Part shown: in pieces, positions 1 through 32,900 of the stretch | How the letters are laid out: the number at the start of each line of letters is the position of its first letter | Position numbering within the stretch: the first letter of the stretch is position 1 | IMG/VR virus record: IMGVR_UViG_2740892229_000013 | DNA: 38,746 bases | From: a virus | Lineage: Duplodnaviria > Heunggongvirae > Uroviricota > Caudoviricetes | Direction: 5' to 3' (one strand) | Notes under the pieces: generated by a model | The model's input: only the letters and a program-made list of their open reading frames with translations | What the model was told of the DNA's origin: nothing | Databases searched by the model: none | Translations under genes and position numbers: made by a program

Positions 1-46
1 ATGTTATTACCCGATCTCGATGGAAGTTATTGAGTGATCTCCTTTC

Positions 47-513
47 ATGAAAATACGCAATTACCCAAACAGCGAAGAAACACCTGAACCACTGAAACCC
101 CAACGAAGCCTGTTACCGCAAGGATTCTCTCAATCCCAAAAGACACGAAACAGAACAATCACGGGAAACGCCATTACCCAATACACGAATAACTACAAAA
201 GCCCTTCACACTCCAGACAAACAACTCAAACACAATAACGAAAGGATTCGCCCACCTGCCATTACTCCATACACGGAGAAGAACAATCACCAAAACGACG
301 AGAACACCCCATAGAAGAACCACCGCAAAACTAACGAAACCACATACACCGACAGAGAAAACAACACACCCAATTCACCAACAGAAATAGTCGCCGTATA
401 GAACGTTCTGGAAGGAGTGAGCATTAACGCCTATAGAGAGGTTGAGACAGATAAAACACGAAGAAAACACAACATGTATAGCGAAGAAGCCAGGTATGTA
501 TAAGTGGAGAGGG
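47..513 (+). other. A/C-rich, G/T-poor non-coding tract (possible leader/3'UTR or long ncRNA; rut-like composition)
   Basis: Hand counts: 241-300 = 23A/19C/10G/8T; 301-360 = 30A/19C/8G/3T. The only track ORF (47..238) is low-complexity with no RBS. The tract runs into a strong intrinsic terminator. Confidence 0.55.
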
Positions 514-600: not shown

Positions 601-735
601 CAGGGAAAAGGCTGCATCCCGCTACAGAAACGGCTGGGTTGCCTTCGGGGAACGGCTGGAGGTTTTCAGGGAAACGGTCGAGTTGCCTGTGTGGATTTCG
701 GGAGAAGGCTCGATGCCGGTTCAGGAACGGTGGCG
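601..735 (+). repeat. Iteron-like direct repeat array, core (G)GGAAACGGCTG, six copies
   Basis: Cores end at 614, 636, 658 and 680 (exact 22-bp phasing), then 712 and ~733. Variants: AAAAGGCTG, AAACGGCTG, GAACGGCTG, AAACGGTCG, GAAGGCTCG, GAACGGTGG. Confidence 0.65.
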
Positions 736-958: not shown

Positions 959-1067
959 GTAAAAAGTGTACTCGGTACTGAACCTGAAAACTCACTGCCA
1001 AAACCACATTCACCGGAATAAAATCCTTTTTCGCCTGTGCGTTATTGCGATAATAACACCATCAAGA

Positions 1068-1080
1068 AAACATGTTGTTT
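1068..1080. promoter_or_regulatory. Palindromic leader box AAACATGTTGTTT (variant of AAACAAnTTGTTT)
   Basis: 12/13 identical to the box at 1552-1564. Directly abuts the RBS AAGGA of the 1093 gene. A possible extended -10, TGCGATAAT, lies at 1046-1054. Confidence 0.5.
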
Positions 1081-1528: not shown

Positions 1529-1537
1529 TGGTATTAT
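1529..1537 (+). promoter_or_regulatory. Candidate extended -10 element TGGTATTAT
   Basis: TGnTATTAT match. It places a transcription start ~1544, 8 nt upstream of box 1552-1564. Confidence 0.4.
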
Positions 1538-1551
1538 TTACGCCATTTAGA

Positions 1552-1564
1552 AAACAAGTTGTTT
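1552..1564. promoter_or_regulatory. Palindromic leader box AAACAAGTTGTTT
   Basis: Perfect 6-1-6 palindrome, 4 nt before the GGAG RBS of the 1573 gene. Identical 13-mer at 12362-12374. Confidence 0.6.
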
Positions 1565-1952: not shown

Positions 1953-1981
1953 TTGTAAGTACATACTTACGATCATAGAAT
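1953..1981 (+). promoter_or_regulatory. Candidate sigma70 promoter TTGTAA-N17-TAGAAT overlapped by palindrome GTAAGTACATACTTAC (1955-1970)
   Basis: -35 at 1953-1958, -10 at 1976-1981. The 16-bp palindrome covers the -35 and spacer. 44 bp upstream of ATG 2014. Confidence 0.5.
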
Positions 1982-2454: not shown

Positions 2455-2467
2455 TAACAATTTGTTT
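2455..2467. promoter_or_regulatory. Palindromic leader box TAACAATTTGTTT
   Basis: AACAA-T-TTGTT palindrome just downstream of a TATTAT hexamer (2443-2448). Confidence 0.5.
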
Positions 2468-2526
2468 TCTGCCTTATCTGATTTGTGAAAATGATTTCAC
2501 TGAAGCAACTTAATAAGGAAACCATC

Positions 2527-3177: not shown

Positions 3178-3206
3178 TTGACGCCTTATTCGTACAACGA
3201 TAATTA
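3178..3206 (+). promoter_or_regulatory. Candidate sigma70 promoter TTGACG-N17-TAATTA
   Basis: -35 at 3178-3183, -10 at 3201-3206. Predicted start ~3213, just before box 3219-3231. Confidence 0.5.
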
Positions 3207-3218
3207 ACACAAACAAGA

Positions 3219-3231
3219 AAACAATTTGTTA
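3219..3231. promoter_or_regulatory. Palindromic leader box AAACAATTTGTTA
   Basis: Same 6-1-6 architecture, 8 nt upstream of the AAGGA RBS of the 3252 gene. Confidence 0.55.
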
Positions 3232-3251
3232 TTTACGATAAGGAATTAATC

Positions 3252-3734
3252 ATGAATTTTATCGCTACTGTAAACGCACCCGCACATGGCAATATCGCTG
3301 TAACGTTCTCTGACATTGAAAAACGAGTACTTGGTGCATGGCGCGACAATGAGACGGTAGAACTGTCAGCACAAGAAAAATGCATTATTGCACGCGACAT
3401 CATTGGCAATCGTCGTTACTCGCGGGTATTTGAGAAAGCGTATGTGGTAAATTCTGGATTCGGAACGTTCGTCTTTCCGGTGCGCTCCGGGCGATTCTGC
3501 CAGTCCAAGCTGATTGAGTTCGCTACGCAGATTTCTGTCTGGATTAAAACTCAATCGTCGTTCAAATTTTCCGACGATGAAGCAGTATCGCAGGGGATGC
3601 GGATCGCCAACAATGCAATTAAATGCAAAAACATTACGTATACCGCTGGCGTTGATACATGGAAACTGTTTTGCGCTAACTTTATGCTGAATGTATACGC
3701 AAGCAACCGCATCCACATCCTTGATGGCGTGTAA
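3252..3734 (+). CDS. Hypothetical protein (160 aa)
   Basis: ORF track. AAGGA RBS. Hairpin follows. Confidence 0.75.
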   Translation: MNFIATVNAPAHGNIAVTFSDIEKRVLGAWRDNETVELSAQEKCIIARDIIGNRRYSRVFEKAYVVNSGFGTFVFPVRSGRFCQSKLIEFATQISVWIKTQSSFKFSDDEAVSQGMRIANNAIKCKNITYTAGVDTWKLFCANFMLNVYASNRIHILDGV

Positions 3735-3766: not shown

Positions 3767-3862
3767 ATAGCCACCAGCTGCCGCAGGGAAATTTTCAGAA
3801 ACGGCGAGGAACGTATTCGTGAGCCGACGGGGAACGGCCAGGATTTTTTCGGGAAACGGCTG
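3747..3862 (+). repeat. Second cluster of the GGGAAACGGCTG-type iteron motif (4-5 copies)
   Basis: AAACGGCCC at 3751-3759, AAACGGCGA at 3799-3807, GAACGGCCA at 3832-3840, AAACGGCTG at 3854-3862 (last two 22 bp apart). GGGAAACGGCTGCAT at 3851-3865 mirrors GGGAAAAGGCTGCAT at 603-617. Confidence 0.55.
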
Positions 3863-6099: not shown

Positions 6100-6624
6100 T
6101 CAAAAAGGCAAAATTCGTTCAACCCAATCGAACAAAACAACTATTTTTCTACCGTTCTCGACACGTAGTGTAACCTGACAAGCATCTGCGCCTGCTGACA
6201 CCCCCTCAATTTCACGGCCATCCGCCATGTACACCCTTATAGATTTGTTTGCTTTGTAGGCTTGGTTGCAAATTGCAAAAAAATCGCGGCGTGATGGCCG
6301 ATTATCGACATAATCAGGGTGAACTGTTAGTCGACCTTTGAAATCGTGAGCGATACTGTCAACCACACCTGATTCAATTGTACTAATGCGTTCAAGTGGG
6401 AGCCTTATACGATTTTCTTTGTCAAAAGGGGCTGGGCAAAGGTCAACTTTGTTACGAGATGGCATGAGGCCATAAACGTACATGCAAAACGCCTGGCCAT
6501 CTTCGAGAGTGACCCTTACAGGAATTTGTTCTCTGCGCCAGAACATCAGTAGTTTTTCAACGTTAGTGTAATCTCGCGGCCAGAGTTCAGCTTGGATACC
6601 GTAGGTAATATCTTTGGTTGTCAT
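6100..6624 (-). CDS. Hypothetical cytoplasmic protein (174 aa); possible tandem Sm/SH3-like (Rof/Hfq-like) barrels
   Basis: Track ORF 6100..6702 trimmed to ATG 6624 (the rest overlaps the upstream gene). Two segments, IPVRVTLEDGQ...IRLPLERISTIE and IRVYMADGREIEG...VVLFDWVERI, fit the Rof/Hfq pattern from memory. Confidence 0.7.
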   Translation of the reverse strand: MTTKDITYGIQAELWPRDYTNVEKLLMFWRREQIPVRVTLEDGQAFCMYVYGLMPSRNKVDLCPAPFDKENRIRLPLERISTIESGVVDSIAHDFKGRLTVHPDYVDNRPSRRDFFAICNQAYKANKSIRVYMADGREIEGVSAGADACQVTLRVENGRKIVVLFDWVERILPF

Positions 6625-7119: not shown

Positions 7120-7398
7120 TTATTTTAATCTGCTTAATAGCGTTTCGAGATCTTCCTTTGTCATATTAGAGTTCTCATAGATACGCATGATTTTCTCACG
7201 AGTCTTAGCGGAAGCCCCGACAGAAGATATAACCTTGTCAAAGTCGGCCATTGTCAATTGTTCCAGAATGGTATTAATGACTTCAGCCTTAGACATTTTG
7301 ATATTTTTTTCTTTTAGTTTCACTTGAAACTTTCCAAGTTTGTCATTGGCCTTATCAGACAATGCTACCTGACAGTAAGTTGTTTTCTTTTCACTCAT
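7120..7398 (-). CDS. Hypothetical protein (92 aa), N-terminal ribbon-helix-helix-like
   Basis: ORF track. The strand-helix-helix pattern TTYCQVALS / DKANDKLGKF / SKAEVINTILEQL is a pattern-level call only. Starts 2 nt after the helicase stop. Confidence 0.65.
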   Translation of the reverse strand: MSEKKTTYCQVALSDKANDKLGKFQVKLKEKNIKMSKAEVINTILEQLTMADFDKVISSVGASAKTREKIMRIYENSNMTKEDLETLLSRLK

Positions 7399-8999: not shown

Positions 9000-9025
9000 A
9001 TTATAATAAGTAAGTGATTACTTAG
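9000..9025. promoter_or_regulatory. Divergent promoter core: palindromic -10 ATTATAAT (9000-9007) plus degenerate GTAAGT-N4-ACTTAG palindrome (9010-9025)
   Basis: TATAAT reads on both strands. The 82-bp gap separates the divergent helicase and ParB-like operons. The -35 elements are weak. Confidence 0.45.
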
Positions 9026-9042
9026 TGGATTGTAGCAATAAA

Positions 9043-9726
9043 ATGGATGTAAAAATCACGATTTTGCAGGTTGATGTTGCCAACCTTCGCCCGAATACCT
9101 GGAACACCAATTCGGTTGGTGCGCAGAATTTTGAAAAACTGAAAGGTTCTATCGAAAAATTGGGCTTTTTTAAGCCAATTTTGGCTCGTGAACTTGAAGA
9201 TGGATTTTTTGAAATCCTCGGCGGCGAACATCGCTGGCGTGCCGCTATTGAGCAAGGAATTTCAACGGTTCCAGTGCTTTCTGTGGGCAAAATTAGCGAT
9301 GTCGTAGCTAAACAGATGTCACTGGTGGACAACGAGCGATACGGTGAAGACGACCAAATCGCATTGCAACGCTTCATTGAAGAAATTCAGTCAGAACTTG
9401 ACTATCAACTGTCTGAAATCGCCCCGTATGACGACGAAATCTCGATGGTTTTAGCAAAAGAGGCGGCAATCGACCTTGAAGCACTGGAGGCGTTGTCTCG
9501 TGGTAGTGATGAGCCTGTCGATACCGACAAACGAGAGAAAACCGAACGTGTGGGGGCGGAACATCAGACCATGCGCTTCAAAGTAACTTTCGATGCGTCA
9601 GATCGTGTTGCAGAAACCATAAAAAACATCATCAAAGAGCAGGCTATTAACACCGGTAATGAAATGGAGAACGCTGGTGAGGCTCTGGTGTGGCTGGTCG
9701 ACTACTACTACAAGGAGCGTATGTAA
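9043..9726 (+). CDS. ParB/Srx N-terminal-domain protein 1 (227 aa; alternative GTG start 9025)
   Basis: ParB arginine box ILGGEHRWRAA. Acidic central linker. The stop overlaps the next start (TAATG). Confidence 0.8.
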   Translation: MDVKITILQVDVANLRPNTWNTNSVGAQNFEKLKGSIEKLGFFKPILARELEDGFFEILGGEHRWRAAIEQGISTVPVLSVGKISDVVAKQMSLVDNERYGEDDQIALQRFIEEIQSELDYQLSEIAPYDDEISMVLAKEAAIDLEALEALSRGSDEPVDTDKREKTERVGAEHQTMRFKVTFDASDRVAETIKNIIKEQAINTGNEMENAGEALVWLVDYYYKERM

Positions 9727-11952: not shown

Positions 11953-12219
11953 ATGACGTTAACCGATAAACAAAAGGACATCATCAAAACGCTCAATCTC
12001 GGTTATGAGCGAGGTCATCTACTTGACCTGGACGAATTGCTTGAAGTTTTGCCGTACAAGACAACCAAGCAAAGTATCCAGTTCTCAATTCGCGCTCTGA
12101 TAAAAAAGGGGCTGGTGGAGAAAGGGCATACGCGCCAACGCAGTGACAATCGCTATCACCGCCGAACTCTTGGGTTAACCACTTTAGGTCGAGCCAAAGC
12201 GAAGTTACTGGTGATGTAA
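11953..12219 (+). CDS. Small winged-helix DNA-binding protein (88 aa)
   Basis: wHTH-like segment TTKQSIQFSIRALIKKGLVEKG. TAAGGA RBS. Last gene before the packaging module. Confidence 0.6.
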   Translation: MTLTDKQKDIIKTLNLGYERGHLLDLDELLEVLPYKTTKQSIQFSIRALIKKGLVEKGHTRQRSDNRYHRRTLGLTTLGRAKAKLLVM

Positions 12220-12252
12220 TCGGTCTGGGAGCTTATTTAAAGACCTGCATCT

Positions 12253-12289
12253 GTATATATAAATAATAAGTAACTTATTAAATATATAC
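12253..12289. repeat. AT-rich imperfect palindrome centred on AATAAGT-A-ACTTATT (12265-12279)
   Basis: Perfect 15-bp palindrome with GTATATAT...ATATATAC outer arms. Shares the TAAGTA half-site with the GTAAGTA palindrome family. Confidence 0.5.
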
Positions 12290-12336
12290 GGAAGCAGGCT
12301 TCGTAAGACATGCCAGACCTAATTAAACACCCCAGA

Positions 12337-12349
12337 AAACAAGTTGGTT
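12337..12349. promoter_or_regulatory. Palindromic leader box AAACAAGTTGGTT
   Basis: 12/13 match to AAACAAGTTGTTT. First of two copies upstream of TerS. Confidence 0.5.
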
Positions 12350-12361
12350 AGCAGATGCAGT

Positions 12362-12374
12362 AAACAAGTTGTTT
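12362..12374. promoter_or_regulatory. Palindromic leader box AAACAAGTTGTTT
   Basis: Exact copy of 1552-1564. Abuts the hairpin at 12376. Confidence 0.6.
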
Positions 12375-12375
12375 T

Positions 12376-12405
12376 AGAGCGCATGGACGCGCTCTGTGTG
12401 TTTTA
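12376..12405 (+). terminator. Intrinsic terminator/attenuator in the TerS leader
   Basis: AGAGCGC (12376-12382) / GCGCTCT (12389-12395), 6-nt loop, then GTGTGTTTTA. Lies 10 nt before ATG 12415. TTTTAGAG is duplicated at 12372 and 12401. Confidence 0.55.
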
Positions 12406-12414
12406 GAGGGATCT

Positions 12415-13047
12415 ATGACGGTCGAAAAAGACGAGGTAAAAACTCGCCTGACACCAGCGGAGTGGGCCGAAGCTGAAGCCAAATGGACGTCAGGCGAATA
12501 TACACTCTCAAAGCTGGAGGAAGAGTACGGCATTCGTCGTGAAACACTCTCCAGACATTTCAAAAAGCGAGGATTAGAGAAAGGCGCGGACTCTGTTGGG
12601 AAGATGGTTCGTGAGTCTCTTAAATCTGACGCAGAGCTTCGCGCTAAAGTCCGTGCGGAAAAGATAGAAGAACGTCGTACACGTTATGACGGCTGGGCGT
12701 ATGCGTTGGGGCAGATGGTGATGGTCGAAGTCACTACGGCCAAACGTGAGGGTAAGCCTTTAGGGGCGATTGAGGATTCTCTCAAGAGCTTACAGAGAGC
12801 CAGTAATACCCTTGCAAAATGCTTTGAAGTTTCGTCCAAAGCATTGGGCATGGATCATGCGGAAAATGACGAGGAAGAAATTCCGAATCTGGTATTTGGT
12901 GAGCTTACGCCTTCCCAGGTGGCGAAATTACGTCAGGAAGACGACGAGCCTGAAATCATCGATGACGAATTGCTTGAGACGTTGGAAGAAGAAGCTCTAA
13001 GCGAATTTGATGCGACAGATGATGGAAGTGAAGGGGAGGACGAATAA
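12415..13047 (+). CDS. Terminase small subunit (210 aa)
   Basis: Immediately upstream of TerL and overlapping it (TAATG). N-terminal HTH-like region (YTLSKLEEEYGIRRETLSRHFKK). Very acidic C-terminus. Confidence 0.75.
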   Translation: MTVEKDEVKTRLTPAEWAEAEAKWTSGEYTLSKLEEEYGIRRETLSRHFKKRGLEKGADSVGKMVRESLKSDAELRAKVRAEKIEERRTRYDGWAYALGQMVMVEVTTAKREGKPLGAIEDSLKSLQRASNTLAKCFEVSSKALGMDHAENDEEEIPNLVFGELTPSQVAKLRQEDDEPEIIDDELLETLEEEALSEFDATDDGSEGEDE

Positions 13048-21299: not shown

Positions 21300-21319
21300 T
21301 AGTAAGTATATACTTACTA
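21300..21319. promoter_or_regulatory. Perfect 20-bp palindrome TAGTAAGTATATACTTACTA
   Basis: Self-complementary on hand check. ~50 bp upstream of ATG 21368. The core GTAAGTATATACTTAC is 15/16 identical to 1955-1970. Confidence 0.65.
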
Positions 21320-29942: not shown

Positions 29943-32900
29943 ATGGAACAGTTCAAGAAGAAAAAATTACCGCTTCTTATTGCCGGTGCTGGTGGCAAGA
30001 AAAGTAAAAGCTCCAGCCGTACCCCGGTTGAAGCTGATGATACTGTCAATTCTCGTGCTATGGCAGCCATCCTCGACCTTCTTGGCGAGGGGGTTATCGG
30101 TGGCCTGGTAAATGGCGCAAAGTCGATCTTCATCGACGATTTACCGATCTTGAATGAAGATGGCTCTTCCAACTTCAGCGGTATTACATGGGATTTTCGT
30201 GACGGCTCACAAGATCAGACGCCAATGGCTGGTTTTGATTTTGTCGAAACGCCTAAGTCCGTAAATATTCAGCTTAAAAAAACACACGACGTTACGGTTT
30301 CAATCGATAACGATGAAGCTGATCGCGTTCGTGTCATCATGAAATTCCCCTCTTTACGTAGCGTTGATAAAAGCTCTGGCGATACAAATGGCACTACGGT
30401 GAAGTACAAATTCCAGATCGCCAACGCAGACGCAACATTTTCTGATGTAGTGGCAGAAGGTGAGAAAAGCGTTGATATCACGCTAACGGCAAAGAAAACC
30501 GGCGTGTATTACCGTAGCTATGAGCTGAAACTGCCTAAGCCTGGTCGTGCATACAAGGTTAGGGTGATTCGTCTTACAGATGATAATAGTAGCCAGTACC
30601 TCTACAACGACACATGGGTTGATTCCATCGGTGAGATTGTCGACACGCCAATGAACTACCCTAACTCTGCTCTTGTTGGCTTGAAGGTCAATTCAGAGCA
30701 GTTTGGTAGCACAATGCCTTCCCGTTCGTATTTGGTGCGCGGTATCAAAATCCGAGTACCGTCAAACTACAACGAATACACCAATACTTATGTCGGCGTA
30801 TGGGACGGTACTTTTAAGCTGTTGTCTTCTTCAAACCCTGCGTGGATTCTCTACGATTTGCTTACCAATACTCGGTATGGTCTTGGGCAATTTGTGTCGG
30901 AATCCATGATTGACCTCGGCCAGCTCTACCAGATTGGTCGATATTGTGACGAAGAGGTCGATGATGGCTTTGGGGGTAAAGAGAAACGCTTTGCAATCAA
31001 TACGCAGATCACCAGTCGACAAGACGCATACCGATTAATTCAGGATATTGCCGGTGCATTCCGCGGCATGGTGTTTTGGGCTGGTGGCATGGTTAACATC
31101 ATGCAGGATAGCCCATCAGATCCGGTAATGATGTTTACCAACTCCAACGTCAAAGATGGACTGTTTACCTATAAAGGTTCTGCGCGTAAAGATCGCCCAT
31201 CCGTTGCGCTCGTAACCTACAACAACAAGGAGGACGGTTATAAGCAAAACATCGAGTACGTTGAAGATCAGGACGCAATGCGCCGTTATGGTGAGCTTAA
31301 AACAGAAGTCGTAGCATTTGGGTGTACAAGCCGAGGCCAGGCTCACCGAGTAGGTTTGTGGCTTTTGTATACCGCCAGAATGGAGTCGGATGTAATTACA
31401 TTTACTGCCGGCTTAGACGCCTCATTTCTGATGCCTGGTGAAACCGTTCTGATTCAGAACAAATATCGTGCAGGTAAACGTAACTCCGGTCGAATTGTGG
31501 AGTTTGCCAAAAACAGCATCACTCTCGATGCGCCTGTGTCGTTAGCTAAAAGCGGCAGCTTTATTCGGATATTGAATCAGGAAGGCAAAATCGTTGAACG
31601 CGATGTTCTTGAAACTGGCGAAAACATAACAAAGGTTACGTTTTCAAAAGCCCTGTCGTCAGCGGAAACGCCTGTTTTGAACGGTGTCTGGACAATTACA
31701 GAACCAGATCTCGAACCTATGCGCGTTCGCATCGTTAACATCGCGCAGGGGGAAACGCCGGGTAGCTTTGACATCACCGCTGTTGAGAACAATCCGTCTA
31801 AATATGAGGCAATCGACAATGGTGCAACGCTGATCCCGCAGAATACGACGGTATTGGACCCGACTTACTCCAAGCCATCTAATTTGCAAATCACTGAAGG
31901 GACTTATCTCTCAAGCCCGGGCAACCTGTCAGTAAAACTGACTGCAACATGGGAAGGGAAATCTCCAGAGTATTGGATCAGTTGGCGACGTTCTGATGAA
32001 AACAATGTATCGAACTGGCAATCGGCGCGTGTAACCGAAGAGCAATACGAAATCGTTAATGTCGCGGAGAATGGACGCTACGACTTCCAACTGTATGCGG
32101 TTTCATTCAACGGTAAAAAAACAGAGATTATCAGTACCGTTTATCAGGTGTTGGGCACAATGACACCGCCGGATGCCCCAACGTCATTAACGGCCGTTGG
32201 AGACTATCGTAATGTGATACTGAATTGGGTTAATCCAGATTCGGTAGACCTTGATCACATTAATGTTTACGCATCCCAGACCAACAATCTGGATACGGCG
32301 AAACTGATCGCAGAGTCTGCAAGCACCACCTTTACACATGCTGGTCTTGGGGATAGCGAAACGTGGTATTACTGGGTTCGAGCATCGAACAAGCGAGGTA
32401 TGTTAAGCCCTCCGAACTCAAACTTGGGTACAGAGGCGACAACTCGCGATGTACTGTCGTTCCTGGCTGGCAAAATTACATCTTCCGAGCTTGGTCAGGC
32501 TCTGCTTGAGGACATCAACAGCAAAGCCTCTCAAGAAGCAGTTGACGAGTTAAATGAGCATATCAACCAGAGCGTCGAATCTTTGGAGGGGGCGGTAAAC
32601 GACGTTAAGGAAGATATAGCTGAATTAGATAAGCAGTTCAGCGATAACCTCGCGGATTTTGAAATAAAATTCAACGAGCGTAGCGATGCTTTGGAGAACG
32701 CACAAACCGAGCTTAAAGGTGAGGTTTCGGCAACGATCGACAAGGTCAATGAAGCGTTTGAAAAAATTGATGCTACTGATGCTGCAATTGTTGAAATCGA
32801 AAACACCGTATCTGAACACGATAAAGCTCTCGCTAATACAGTCGAGGCAATAAAGGCTGCAAGAGATGAAGCGGCGGCTCTTATTGCTAAGGAAAGCGAG

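What the first reader, a model, noticed from the sequence alone, without database searches (positions are those of the whole stretch)
12337..12374. Second palindromic box family, AAACAAnTTGTTT, in the leaders of small early genes and doubled before TerS
Copies are at:
- 1068-1080 (AAACATGTTGTTT);
- 1552-1564 (AAACAAGTTGTTT);
- 2455-2467 (TAACAATTTGTTT);
- 3219-3231 (AAACAATTTGTTA);
- 12337-12349 (AAACAAGTTGGTT);
- 12362-12374 (AAACAAGTTGTTT, identical to 1552-1564).

All lie between a candidate -10 element and the RBS of the downstream gene. That is roughly +1 to +20 relative to the starts implied by TGCGATAAT 1046-1054, TGGTATTAT 1529-1537, TATTAT 2443-2448 and TAATTA 3201-3206. I saw none inside coding sequence while reading.

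The 6-1-6 dyad suits a dimeric HTH repressor acting as a roadblock. As RNA it would form only a very weak AU hairpin.

Inference: a single regulator may control four early accessory genes and the entry to the packaging/late operon.
Basis: partly seen in the sequence, partly recalled or inferred. Interest (0 to 1): 0.55.

Follow-up and report, generated by a model that had tools for sequence, protein, structure and literature searches.

The report
Genome-wide operator box of SSU5-like phage-plasmids
The 13-bp palindrome AAACAAnTTGTTT is real and sits at a fixed distance from the promoters of about 18 transcription units in this family of phage-plasmids. It is most likely the DNA operator of one still unidentified repressor, an ordinary kind of device that has not been described for this widespread plasmid-phage group.

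Summary
All six copies are at the stated coordinates (6 found, 0.2 expected).

- **Source.** The window comes from an SSU5-like phage-plasmid, 98% identical to Escherichia phage CMS-2020a.
- **Genome-wide family.** Complete relatives carry 17-21 boxes each (<1 expected). Almost all are intergenic.
- **Geometry.** Type A boxes start 13-14 nt after an extended -10 (TGnGATAAT), at about +8..+20. Type B boxes end 19 nt before such a -10, at about -44..-32. Paired boxes are always 51 bp apart.
- **DNA or RNA.** All 12 half-site positions are near-invariant and the central base is free. Variants are never compensated, and the RNA does not fold. This indicates a DNA site for a two-fold symmetric protein.
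- **Expression.** In published RNA-seq of the Cyrano lysogen, genes behind boxes sit at background. The parA operon is the exception.
Right about the dyad, the promoter-proximal position and the weak hairpin. The regulon was underestimated: it also includes parA, the replicative helicase, nrdB and the cobT-dnaE operon. Box 3 was placed wrongly; it lies upstream of its promoter.
- **Reader protein.** Not identified. None of the candidates I tested co-varies convincingly with the box.

It is a new member of a known kind, and I found no description of it in the literature.

The parts
1068..1080 (+). Box 1 (type A), AAACATGTTGTTT, 1 mismatch
   Evidence: It is preceded by AGA, and GATAAT ends 13 nt upstream.
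1046..1054 (+). Extended -10 TGCGATAAT of the box 1 promoter. The RBS is AAGGA 1081-1085 and the gene is 1093-1422.
   Evidence: Sequence. The fixed 13-14 nt offset holds across 62 contexts.
1552..1564 (+). Box 2 (type A), AAACAAGTTGTTT, perfect
   Evidence: The module is conserved in SSU5, pJN2-26, PhiR41_1 and Cyrano.
1529..1537 (+). Extended -10 TGGTATTAT of the box 2 promoter. The RBS is GGAG 1567-1570 and the gene is 1576-1887.
   Evidence: The gap to the box is 14 nt.
2455..2467 (-). Box 3 (type B, the 19-mer in reverse orientation), TAACAATTTGTTT followed by TCT. It sits 16 nt after the terminator hairpin 2422-2438.
   Evidence: It has the same context as PhiR41_1 33844 and Cyrano 97190.
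2484..2492 (+). Extended -10 TGTGAAAAT, whose hexamer starts 19 nt after box 3. It drives gene 2527-2901. No intact downstream partner box remains (>=4 mismatches).
   Evidence: Sequence. In 20 of 35 type B/other contexts a -10 starts exactly 19 nt after the box, 16 of them with TG.
3219..3231 (+). Box 4 (type A), AAACAATTTGTTA, 1 mismatch
   Evidence: It is preceded by AGA.
3199..3204 (+). -10 GATAAT of the box 4 promoter, 14 nt before the box. The RBS is AGGA 3241-3244 and the gene is 3252-3734.
12337..12349 (+). Box 5 (type A), AAACAAGTTGGTT. It is the first of the pair in the terS leader and promoter region. The module TAATTAAACACCCCAGA is homologous to the other promoters, but its -10 is degenerate.
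12362..12374 (+). Box 6, AAACAAGTTGTTT, perfect, 25 bp after box 5
   Evidence: The pair is doubled in Cyrano, PhiR41_1, SSU5 and pMT1 and single in Klebsiella plasmids.
12375..12396 (+). GC hairpin directly after box 6, followed by TGTGTTTT, then the RBS AGAGGG 12405-12410 and the terS ATG at 12415.
   Evidence: The stem is kept by different sequences in Klebsiella (GGCGTC/GATGCC), but the T-run is not.
11953..12219 (+). 88-aa winged-helix-like protein. It is a candidate reader, not shown to bind.
   Evidence: There are weak LexA_DNA_bind and Sta1/Lrs14 hits. Its putative recognition helix is conserved in the box-less Drgb1. It is silent in the lysogen.
6100..6624 (-). FljA-family protein. 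It is a candidate reader for the RNA-level rival explanation.
   Evidence: Pfam PF03614 at E=2.5e-84, with a weak Hfq-like C-terminal half. Identity is 32-43% between box-bearing plasmids.
9025..9726 (+). ParB_N protein with a C-terminal region whose sequence pattern looks ribbon-helix-helix-like (my reading of the alignment, no model built). It is a candidate reader, not shown to bind.
   Evidence: It is silent in the lysogen, and the strand HQTMRFKV is conserved in the box-less Drgb1.

Best explanation
The box is a DNA operator. One two-fold symmetric, phage-plasmid-encoded DNA-binding protein recognises AAACAA-n-TTGTTT at about 18 sigma-70 promoters of the extended -10 type, spread over the whole SSU5-like genome.

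Most sites lie at about +8..+20, centred near +14, much like lac O1. Bound protein there would block RNA polymerase binding or escape. A third of the sites lie at about -44..-32, centred near -38. Several promoters carry both, 51 bp (about 5 helical turns) apart, which would allow cooperative binding across the core promoter.

In the window this covers four small-gene cassettes of unknown function, each built as terminator, promoter, box, RBS and gene, plus the entry to terS.

- **Shown:** the motif, its enrichment, its geometry, its conservation and its lack of RNA structure.
For: - **Enrichment.** The window has 6 copies against 0.2 expected. Complete relatives have 17-21 each against <1 expected.
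- **Location.** In Cyrano 15 of 18 boxes lie in the 13% of the genome that is intergenic (P=3e-11). The other 3 sit at a mis-called start, a probably mis-called start and a doubtful ORF.
- **Geometry.** 30 of 62 distinct type A contexts have a -10 ending 13-14 nt before the box, 18 of them with TG, and no more than 4 at any other offset. 20 of 35 type B/other contexts have a -10 starting exactly 19 nt after the box.
- **Anchoring.** Paired boxes are 51 bp apart in five genomes. The distance from box to ATG varies from 11 to 40 nt in Cyrano, so the box is anchored to the promoter and not to the RBS.
- **Site signature.** All 12 half-site positions are near-invariant, the central base is free and the flanks are much less conserved. 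The box persists in Klebsiella plasmids whose proteins are only 32-91% identical.
- **Not RNA.** There is no stable RNA fold, and single mismatches are never compensated.
- **Expression.** In the Cyrano lysogen the first genes behind boxes are at 5-13 normalised reads against a background median of 9.8, despite near-consensus extended -10 elements (PMC9928086, S1 Table).
Against: - **No reader.** No binding protein was identified, and every candidate I tested has a problem:
  - The reading elements of the 88-aa wHTH, the ParB_N protein and the ParG-like partition protein are conserved in Pectobacterium plasmid Drgb1, which has only 1 box in 108 kb.
  - The FljA-like protein and the 92-aa RHH-like protein vary strongly between plasmids with identical boxes.
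- **Partial repression.** The parA operon has a perfect box yet is expressed in the lysogen at 50-89, so any repression is not all-or-none.
- **Other causes of silence.** Silence in the lysogen could come from H-NS or from a missing activator.
- **Non-independent counts.** Many sites are orthologous or paralogous modules.
- **Left half alone.** The left half with its prefix (AAGAAAACAA) also occurs in box-less relatives. Part of the conservation may therefore belong to the promoter and leader itself.
Confidence: 0.62

Rival explanations
1. The box is an RNA-level leader element. In the 5' untranslated region it would be bound by the conserved FljA-family protein (two Sm-like halves) or by Hfq. 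That would block translation and destabilise the mRNA, as reported for FljA on the fliC leader.
For: - An FljA-family gene (PF03614, E=2.5e-84) is a core gene of all these plasmids, including those of non-flagellated Klebsiella.
- FljA-type repressors act post-transcriptionally on fliC mRNA (PMC2652032, citing Bonifield & Hughes 2003 and Yamamoto & Kutsukake 2006).
- Type A boxes lie in the predicted leader, up to about 40 nt before the start codon and often directly before the RBS.
- The A-rich and U-rich halves resemble Hfq-type preferences. This last point is from my own knowledge.
Against: - An exact inverted complement, including the C/G positions, is expected for duplex DNA and not for single-stranded RNA recognition.
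- There is no stable hairpin and there are no compensatory changes.
- A third of the boxes lie upstream of the promoter.
- The box is anchored to the -10 and not to the RBS.
- The FljA-like protein is only 32-43% identical between plasmids with identical boxes.
- The E. coli fliC leader contains no box.
Confidence: 0.12
2. The boxes are centromere or operator sites of a partition-type protein. The reader would be the ParG-like ribbon-helix-helix protein encoded after parA, or the ParB_N protein upstream of terS. It would both mark the plasmid and silence phage promoters, as KorB does in IncP plasmids, omega in pSM19035 and SopB at the dispersed sites of N15. This is a special case of the best explanation with a named reader.
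For: - A perfect box sits at the parA promoter in every box-bearing genome, and the par operon is on in the lysogen.
- The partition protein's sequence reads as a ribbon-helix-helix. This is my reading, with no family hit or model. Its strand IKSRTMS and helix FTRSDVIRAAI are invariant even where overall identity falls to 51%.
- Seven lineages with that strand have boxes, and five with IKSRTVSM have none.
- 13-bp 6-1-6 palindromes are what KorB and MatP read. This last point is from my own knowledge.
Against: - The clade split is confounded by phylogeny.
- The residues I predict to face DNA are the same in the box-less clade.
- The parA promoter also holds tandem TAGGC(A/T)AT repeats conserved in both clades, an alternative operator for that protein.
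- The ParB_N genes are silent in the lysogen.
- The par genes lie outside the window, so I could not model them.
Confidence: 0.18
3. There is no trans-acting reader. The box would be part of a promoter-leader cassette that spread by duplication, kept because the A/U-rich unstructured leader gives good initiation or translation.
For: - The modules are clearly paralogous: terminator, T-rich stretch, TGnGATAAT, AACACCAACAAGA, box, RBS.
- The left half with its prefix survives in box-less relatives.
Against: - The box is far better conserved than the rest of the cassette, and its central base is free.
- It occurs in both orientations and upstream of promoters, where it is not in the leader.
- It is retained across orthologous sites whose flanks have diverged.
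Confidence: 0.05
4. The box is the site of a host protein of Enterobacteriaceae, or the site of an activator or temporal switch used in lytic growth rather than a lysogenic repressor.
For: - The box is invariant across plasmids from Escherichia, Salmonella, Klebsiella, Kluyvera, Buttiauxella and Yersinia. It is absent from relatives in Pectobacterium, Morganella, Photorhabdus and Xenorhabdus.
- It matches 7 of 9 specified positions of the IHF consensus WATCAANNNNTTR. This comparison is my own.
- The -38 position suits class II or Mor-type activators.
Against: - I know of no host regulator with this consensus, and IHF is present in all these hosts.
- The majority position, +8..+20, does not suit activation.
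- The strict two-fold symmetry is not IHF-like.
Confidence: 0.06

Closest known systems
P1 C1 repressor and its dispersed operators
   Same: A phage-plasmid in which one repressor site is repeated at many promoters spread over about 100 kb. The sites overlap or lie just downstream of sigma-70 promoters, and the set includes replication and late-control functions.
   Different: C1 operators are asymmetric 17-bp sites with an unrelated sequence. Here the site is a symmetric 13-bp dyad, and I found no C1 homologue. This comparison rests on my own knowledge and was not tested.
KorB operator OB (TTTAGCSGCTAAA) and KorA operator of IncP-1 plasmids
   Same: A 13-bp 6-1-6 palindrome repeated about 12 times on a plasmid. 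Class I sites sit at -39/-40, comparable to the type B boxes at -38.
   Different: The sequence is different. Most boxes here are at about +14, which is not a KorB class. The ParB_N proteins of this element are short (about 230 aa), align to Spo0J mainly over the N-terminal domain and are silent in the lysogen.
lac O1-type operator
   Same: The dyad is centred about 11-14 bp downstream of the start. An auxiliary upstream site lies on the same face of the helix.
   Different: The site is much shorter (13 against 21 bp), and the auxiliary site is only 51 bp away and overlaps the -35 region.
FljA and the fliC mRNA leader
   Same: An FljA-family protein is encoded 5.3 kb upstream of the terS boxes and in all relatives. 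Its known target is a leader just upstream of an RBS.
   Different: The target here behaves as a DNA dyad: both orientations, positions upstream of promoters, no RNA structure. The E. coli fliC leader has no box.
Dispersed sopC-like centromeres of phage-plasmid N15, and omega of pSM19035
   Same: Inverted-repeat or heptad sites of a partition protein lie at promoters of phage or plasmid functions, coupling partition with transcription control.
   Different: N15 has 4 such sites, against about 18 here. The link to the partition protein is unproven here. This comparison rests on my own knowledge.

Membership tests
Protein-binding DNA operator (repressor site at a promoter) | Dyad symmetry with conserved half-sites and a free centre | tested here: met
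   All 12 half-site positions have high information content and the central base has about zero, over 62+35 distinct contexts.
Protein-binding DNA operator (repressor site at a promoter) | Over-representation and restriction to non-coding, promoter-proximal DNA at a fixed distance from the promoter | tested here: met
Protein-binding DNA operator (repressor site at a promoter) | A cognate binding protein | tested here: inconclusive
   I compared six candidates across box-bearing and box-less relatives, and none fits cleanly.
Protein-binding DNA operator (repressor site at a promoter) | Occupancy changes expression | not testable with these tools
   The only evidence is indirect: genes behind boxes are at background in the Cyrano lysogen RNA-seq.
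KorB OB / ParB-type site | The sequence TTTAGCSGCTAAA or a parS-like sequence, read by a ParB-family HTH protein | tested here: not met
   The sequence is different. The ParB_N proteins match Spo0J mainly over the N-terminal domain, and the alignment over the HTH region is poor.
FljA-type translational operator (RNA) | The target lies in the transcribed leader of the regulated gene | tested here: not met
   This holds for type A boxes. About a third of the boxes lie 19 nt upstream of the -10.
FljA-type translational operator (RNA) | Resemblance to the known fliC leader target | tested here: not met
   The E. coli K-12 fliC leader has no box. I could not retrieve the Salmonella leader.
RNA hairpin, intrinsic terminator or known RNA family | A stable fold, compensatory changes or an Rfam match | tested here: not met
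   The MFE is 0 for the box, leaders fold no better than shuffles, and there is no Rfam hit.
IHF site | WATCAANNNNTTR with an asymmetric A/T-rich flank | not tested
   The box matches 7 of 9 positions by eye, and its strict two-fold symmetry is not IHF-like.

The most novel reading that the evidence does not exclude
The box is the shared target through which a plasmid-partition-type protein keeps about 18 phage promoters quiet while the element lives as a plasmid. The same sites would then serve plasmid maintenance and the lysis-lysogeny decision, a KorB/omega-like global circuit in a phage. Losing or titrating that protein would switch on the replication, nucleotide-metabolism, accessory and packaging promoters together.
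Probability: 0.15. Interest if true: 0.75.

Novelty: new member of a known kind. Interest (0 to 1): 0.5.

Why it matters
SSU5-like phage-plasmids are common in clinical Enterobacteriaceae. About 800 PLSDB plasmids carry the neighbouring core genes, including pMT1 of Yersinia pestis and the LF82 phage-plasmid Cyrano. I found no published description of their gene regulation in the searchable literature.

A single 13-bp site that marks nearly every plus-strand promoter gives three things:
- a ready-made promoter map;
- a bait for isolating the master regulator;
- a handle for testing how plasmid life and lytic growth are separated.

The mechanism itself, an operator regulon, is conventional.

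Tried and rejected
- **RNA hairpin.** Rejected: MFE 0 and no covariation.
- **Known RNA family.** None found.
- **FljA link through the fliC leader.** The E. coli leader has no box. The primary FljA papers were not available.
- **The boxed gene 1576-1887 as an autoregulator.** Its model is a four-strand sheet plus a helix (pLDDT 81) with no match to a DNA-binding fold.
- **The 92-aa RHH-like protein 7120-7398.** Its strand residues vary within the box-bearing clade.
- **The HTH 'putative repressor' CYRAN_45.** It lies outside the window and is absent from SSU5, which keeps 20 boxes. Its own upstream region holds a different palindrome, GTAAGTGCTTAC.
- **pMT1 as a natural deletion test.** It has lost the type Ib par genes but keeps 4 boxes. 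The loss is probably too recent (my inference) to be informative.
- **A replacement dyad in the box-less plasmid Drgb1.** I found no consistent motif.
- **Literature searches.** Searches for the motif and for SSU5 regulation returned nothing relevant. One 2026 preprint on phage-plasmid heteroresistance could not be opened.

Full report
**Observation.** Dinucleotide-preserving shuffles give 0.20 on average and never reach 6. Allowing two mismatches adds one coding-region hit at 6135, against 3.2 expected, so the family is sharply bounded. None of the six lies in a credible coding sequence.

**Source.** The window is 98% identical over its first 12.5 kb to Escherichia phage CMS-2020a. It is 96-97% identical to PhiR41_1 and Cyrano, and about 82% to Salmonella phage SSU5. 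It is therefore part of an SSU5-like phage-plasmid. It covers a block of small unknown genes, a minus-strand cluster (helicase, FljA-family protein), a ParB_N-ParB_N-ABC-ATPase-88-aa operon, terS/terL and the structural genes.

**The family is genome-wide.** I assembled complete relatives and counted boxes with up to one mismatch.

| Genome | Boxes | Markov expectation |
|---|---|---|
| PhiR41_1 | 18 | 0.70 |
| Cyrano | 18 | 0.90 |
| SSU5 | 20 | 0.37 |
| Klebsiella pJN2-26 | 17 | 0.57 |
| Klebsiella plasmid NZ_CP103584 (divergent) | 21 | not computed |

In Cyrano, 15 of 18 boxes lie in the 13.2% of the genome annotated as intergenic (binomial P=3e-11). The other three sit at an annotated start that falls inside the box, at another start that is probably mis-called, and in a doubtful ORF.

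Besides the window's six sites, boxes precede parA, the DnaB-like helicase, nrdB, the cobT-cobS-dnaE operon, TerB-like genes, a DUF4942 methylase-like gene and others.

**Anatomy.** Aligning all distinct contexts shows two classes.
- **Type A** is a T-rich stretch, TGnGATAAT, 13-14 nt, AGA, the box, then A and often the RBS.
- **Type B** is a GC hairpin ending in CTT, the box, then TCT(A/G)CCTTTTCTTATCTG and TGnGA(A/T)AAT.
- Type B is the reverse orientation of the same 19-mer, AGA-box-AAG.

The offsets are sharp.
- 30 of 62 type A contexts have a TAnnnT hexamer ending 13-14 nt before the box, 18 of them with the TG of an extended -10. No other offset has more than 4.
- 20 of 35 type B/other contexts have a -10 starting exactly 19 nt after the box, 16 of them with TG.

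If transcription starts 7 nt after the -10, the box occupies +8..+20 (type A) or -44..-32 (type B). Where both are present they are always 51 bp apart start to start, in PhiR41_1, SSU5, Cyrano and two Klebsiella plasmids. The distance from box to start codon ranges from 11 to 40 nt in Cyrano. The box is therefore tied to the promoter, not to the RBS.

**The six window sites.**
- Boxes 1, 2 and 4 are type A. Their -10 elements are TGCGATAAT 1046-1054, TGGTATTAT 1529-1537 and GATAAT 3199-3204.
- Boxes 5 and 6 precede terS. The module there is homologous to the others, but its -10 is degenerate.

**DNA or RNA.** Four results point to DNA.
- The isolated box has an RNA minimum free energy of 0 kcal/mol, and the leaders fold no better than shuffles.
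- Every variant copy carries a single uncompensated change.
- Information content is near maximal at all 12 half-site positions, about zero at the centre and much lower in the flanks.
- The box occurs in both orientations, including upstream of promoters.

This is the signature of a duplex-DNA site read by a two-fold symmetric protein. No Rfam family matches anywhere in the window.

**Does binding repress?** There is no direct evidence. Published RNA-seq of the LF82 lysogen carrying Cyrano gives a background median of 9.8 normalised reads (PMC9928086, S1 Table). The first genes behind boxes read as follows.

| Gene behind a box | Reads |
|---|---|
| terS | 7.1 |
| CYRAN_47 | 7.8 |
| CYRAN_58 | 5.7 |
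| nrdB | 12.9 |
| CYRAN_85 | 7.0 |
| CYRAN_87 | 7.1 |
| CYRAN_101 | 7.5 |
| CYRAN_105 | 12.8 |
| CYRAN_106 | 12.2 |
| CYRAN_108 | 5.7 |
| CYRAN_110 | 6.7 |
| CYRAN_111 | 25.5 |
| helicase | 21 |
| parA operon | 50-89 |

Promoters with near-consensus extended -10 elements that are nonetheless silent fit repression. The parA exception shows that any repression is graded. Cyrano is induced by ciprofloxacin.

**Who reads the box?** This is not resolved.
- **FljA-family protein (6100-6624).** It is a strong Pfam hit with a weak Hfq-like half and no HTH. Its family acts on the fliC mRNA leader. But it is only 32-43% identical between plasmids with identical boxes, and the E. coli fliC leader has no box.
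- **88-aa winged-helix-like protein (11953-12219).** It sits just upstream of the doubled boxes. It is at background in the lysogen, and its putative recognition helix is unchanged in Pectobacterium plasmid Drgb1. Drgb1 keeps the same gene order but has one box in 108 kb.
- **First ParB_N protein.** The same argument applies. Its C-terminal region has a ribbon-helix-helix-like sequence pattern (my reading), and its strand HQTMRFKV is invariant, including in Drgb1.
- **ParG-like partition protein after parA (outside the window).**
  - For: its sequence reads as a ribbon-helix-helix (my reading; no family hit). It is expressed in the lysogen, has a perfect box at its own promoter, and keeps its strand and second helix even at 51% overall identity. 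A search of representative genomes found seven lineages with the strand IKSRTMS, all with boxes at the parA and helicase promoters. It found five with IKSRTVSM (Pectobacterium, Morganella, Photorhabdus, two Xenorhabdus), none with boxes.
  - Against: the split follows phylogeny. The residues I predict to face DNA do not differ between the clades. The parA promoter also carries tandem TAGGC(A/T)AT repeats conserved in both clades.
- **92-aa RHH-like protein (7120-7398).** It varies at its strand positions within the box-bearing clade.
- **Boxed gene 1576-1887.** It models as a sheet plus a helix with no match to a DNA-binding fold.
- **HTH protein CYRAN_45.** It is absent from SSU5, and a different palindrome sits in front of its gene.
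- **pMT1.** It has lost the type Ib par genes but keeps four boxes. The loss is probably too recent (my inference) to be informative.

**Comparison with known systems.**
- Functionally the nearest analogue is the dispersed operator set of a phage-plasmid or plasmid master regulator. Examples are P1 C1, KorB/KorA of IncP-1, omega of pSM19035 and the dispersed SopB sites of N15. These comparisons rest on my own knowledge.
- The 13-bp 6-1-6 format and the -38 class resemble KorB's OB. The sequence, the dominant position near +14 and the available proteins do not match, so I do not file the box as a member of that family.
- It is not an FljA-type RNA operator by the tests I could run.
- No paper in the searchable library contains any of the four box sequences.
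- I rate it a new member of a known kind.

**Verdict.**
- The mechanism is an operator for a symmetric repressor at about 18 extended -10 promoters (confidence about 0.6).
- The reader protein remains unknown.

Noticed in passing
window 603-680 (also 3851-3862 and nearby): Four copies of GGGAAACGGCTG-like 12-mers start at 603, 625, 647 and 669, exactly 22 bp apart, which looks iteron-like. A further perfect copy at 3851 lies on the other side of the small-gene block. There are 15 matches with <=2 mismatches against 2.9 expected.
   Followed up: partly
window 1955-1970 and 21302-21317: A second palindrome family, GTAAGTA(CA/TA)TACTTAC, replaces the -35 region of other promoters (gene 2014-2409 and a tail gene). 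The 12-bp form GTAAGT(G/A)CTTAC sits in front of the HTH repressor gene and several late genes in Cyrano, SSU5 and pJN2-26. It probably belongs to a different regulator.
   Followed up: partly
window 12236-12296: A long AT-rich imperfect palindrome (CCTGCATCTGTATATAT...ATATATACGGAAGCAGG) lies just upstream of the terS promoter module. A similar one lies downstream of the par operon in Cyrano (L011, about 31150-31210).
   Followed up: no
window 12375-12396: The hairpin after box 6 looks like an intrinsic terminator in E. coli and Salmonella. In Klebsiella plasmids the stem is kept by different bases (GGCGTC/GATGCC) but the T-run is lost, so it may have a function other than termination.
   Followed up: partly
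window 1-59 and 60-430: The first 59 bases match the end of a tail-fibre assembly gene of unrelated E. coli phages, so the window starts at a rearrangement junction. They are followed by a strongly A+C-rich, T-poor stretch. In relatives that stretch is preceded by a type B-like box, which is missing here.
   Followed up: no
window 6100-6624 (-): The FljA-family protein appears, by sequence pattern, to consist of two Sm-like halves, with a weak Hfq hit in the second. It is a core gene of all SSU5-like plasmids, including those of non-flagellated Klebsiella and Y. pestis. Its target there cannot be only flagellin mRNA.
   Followed up: partly
L011 42729-42748 (Cyrano, outside the window): In the intergenic region between the HTH repressor gene and the divergent small gene, AAGAAAATCAACTTGCATAT resembles the E. 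coli fliC leader AATCAACGACTTGCAATAT. This is a possible target of the FljA-like protein.
   Followed up: no
window 9025-9726: The first ParB_N protein keeps the GGEHRWRAA motif. Its C-terminal region (HQTMRFKVTFDASDRV...AGEALVWL) has a ribbon-helix-helix-like sequence pattern instead of a clear ParB HTH.
   Followed up: partly
L018 10310-10531 (Pectobacterium plasmid Drgb1): The box-less relative encodes its own Hfq, and its parA is split into two ORFs.
   Followed up: no
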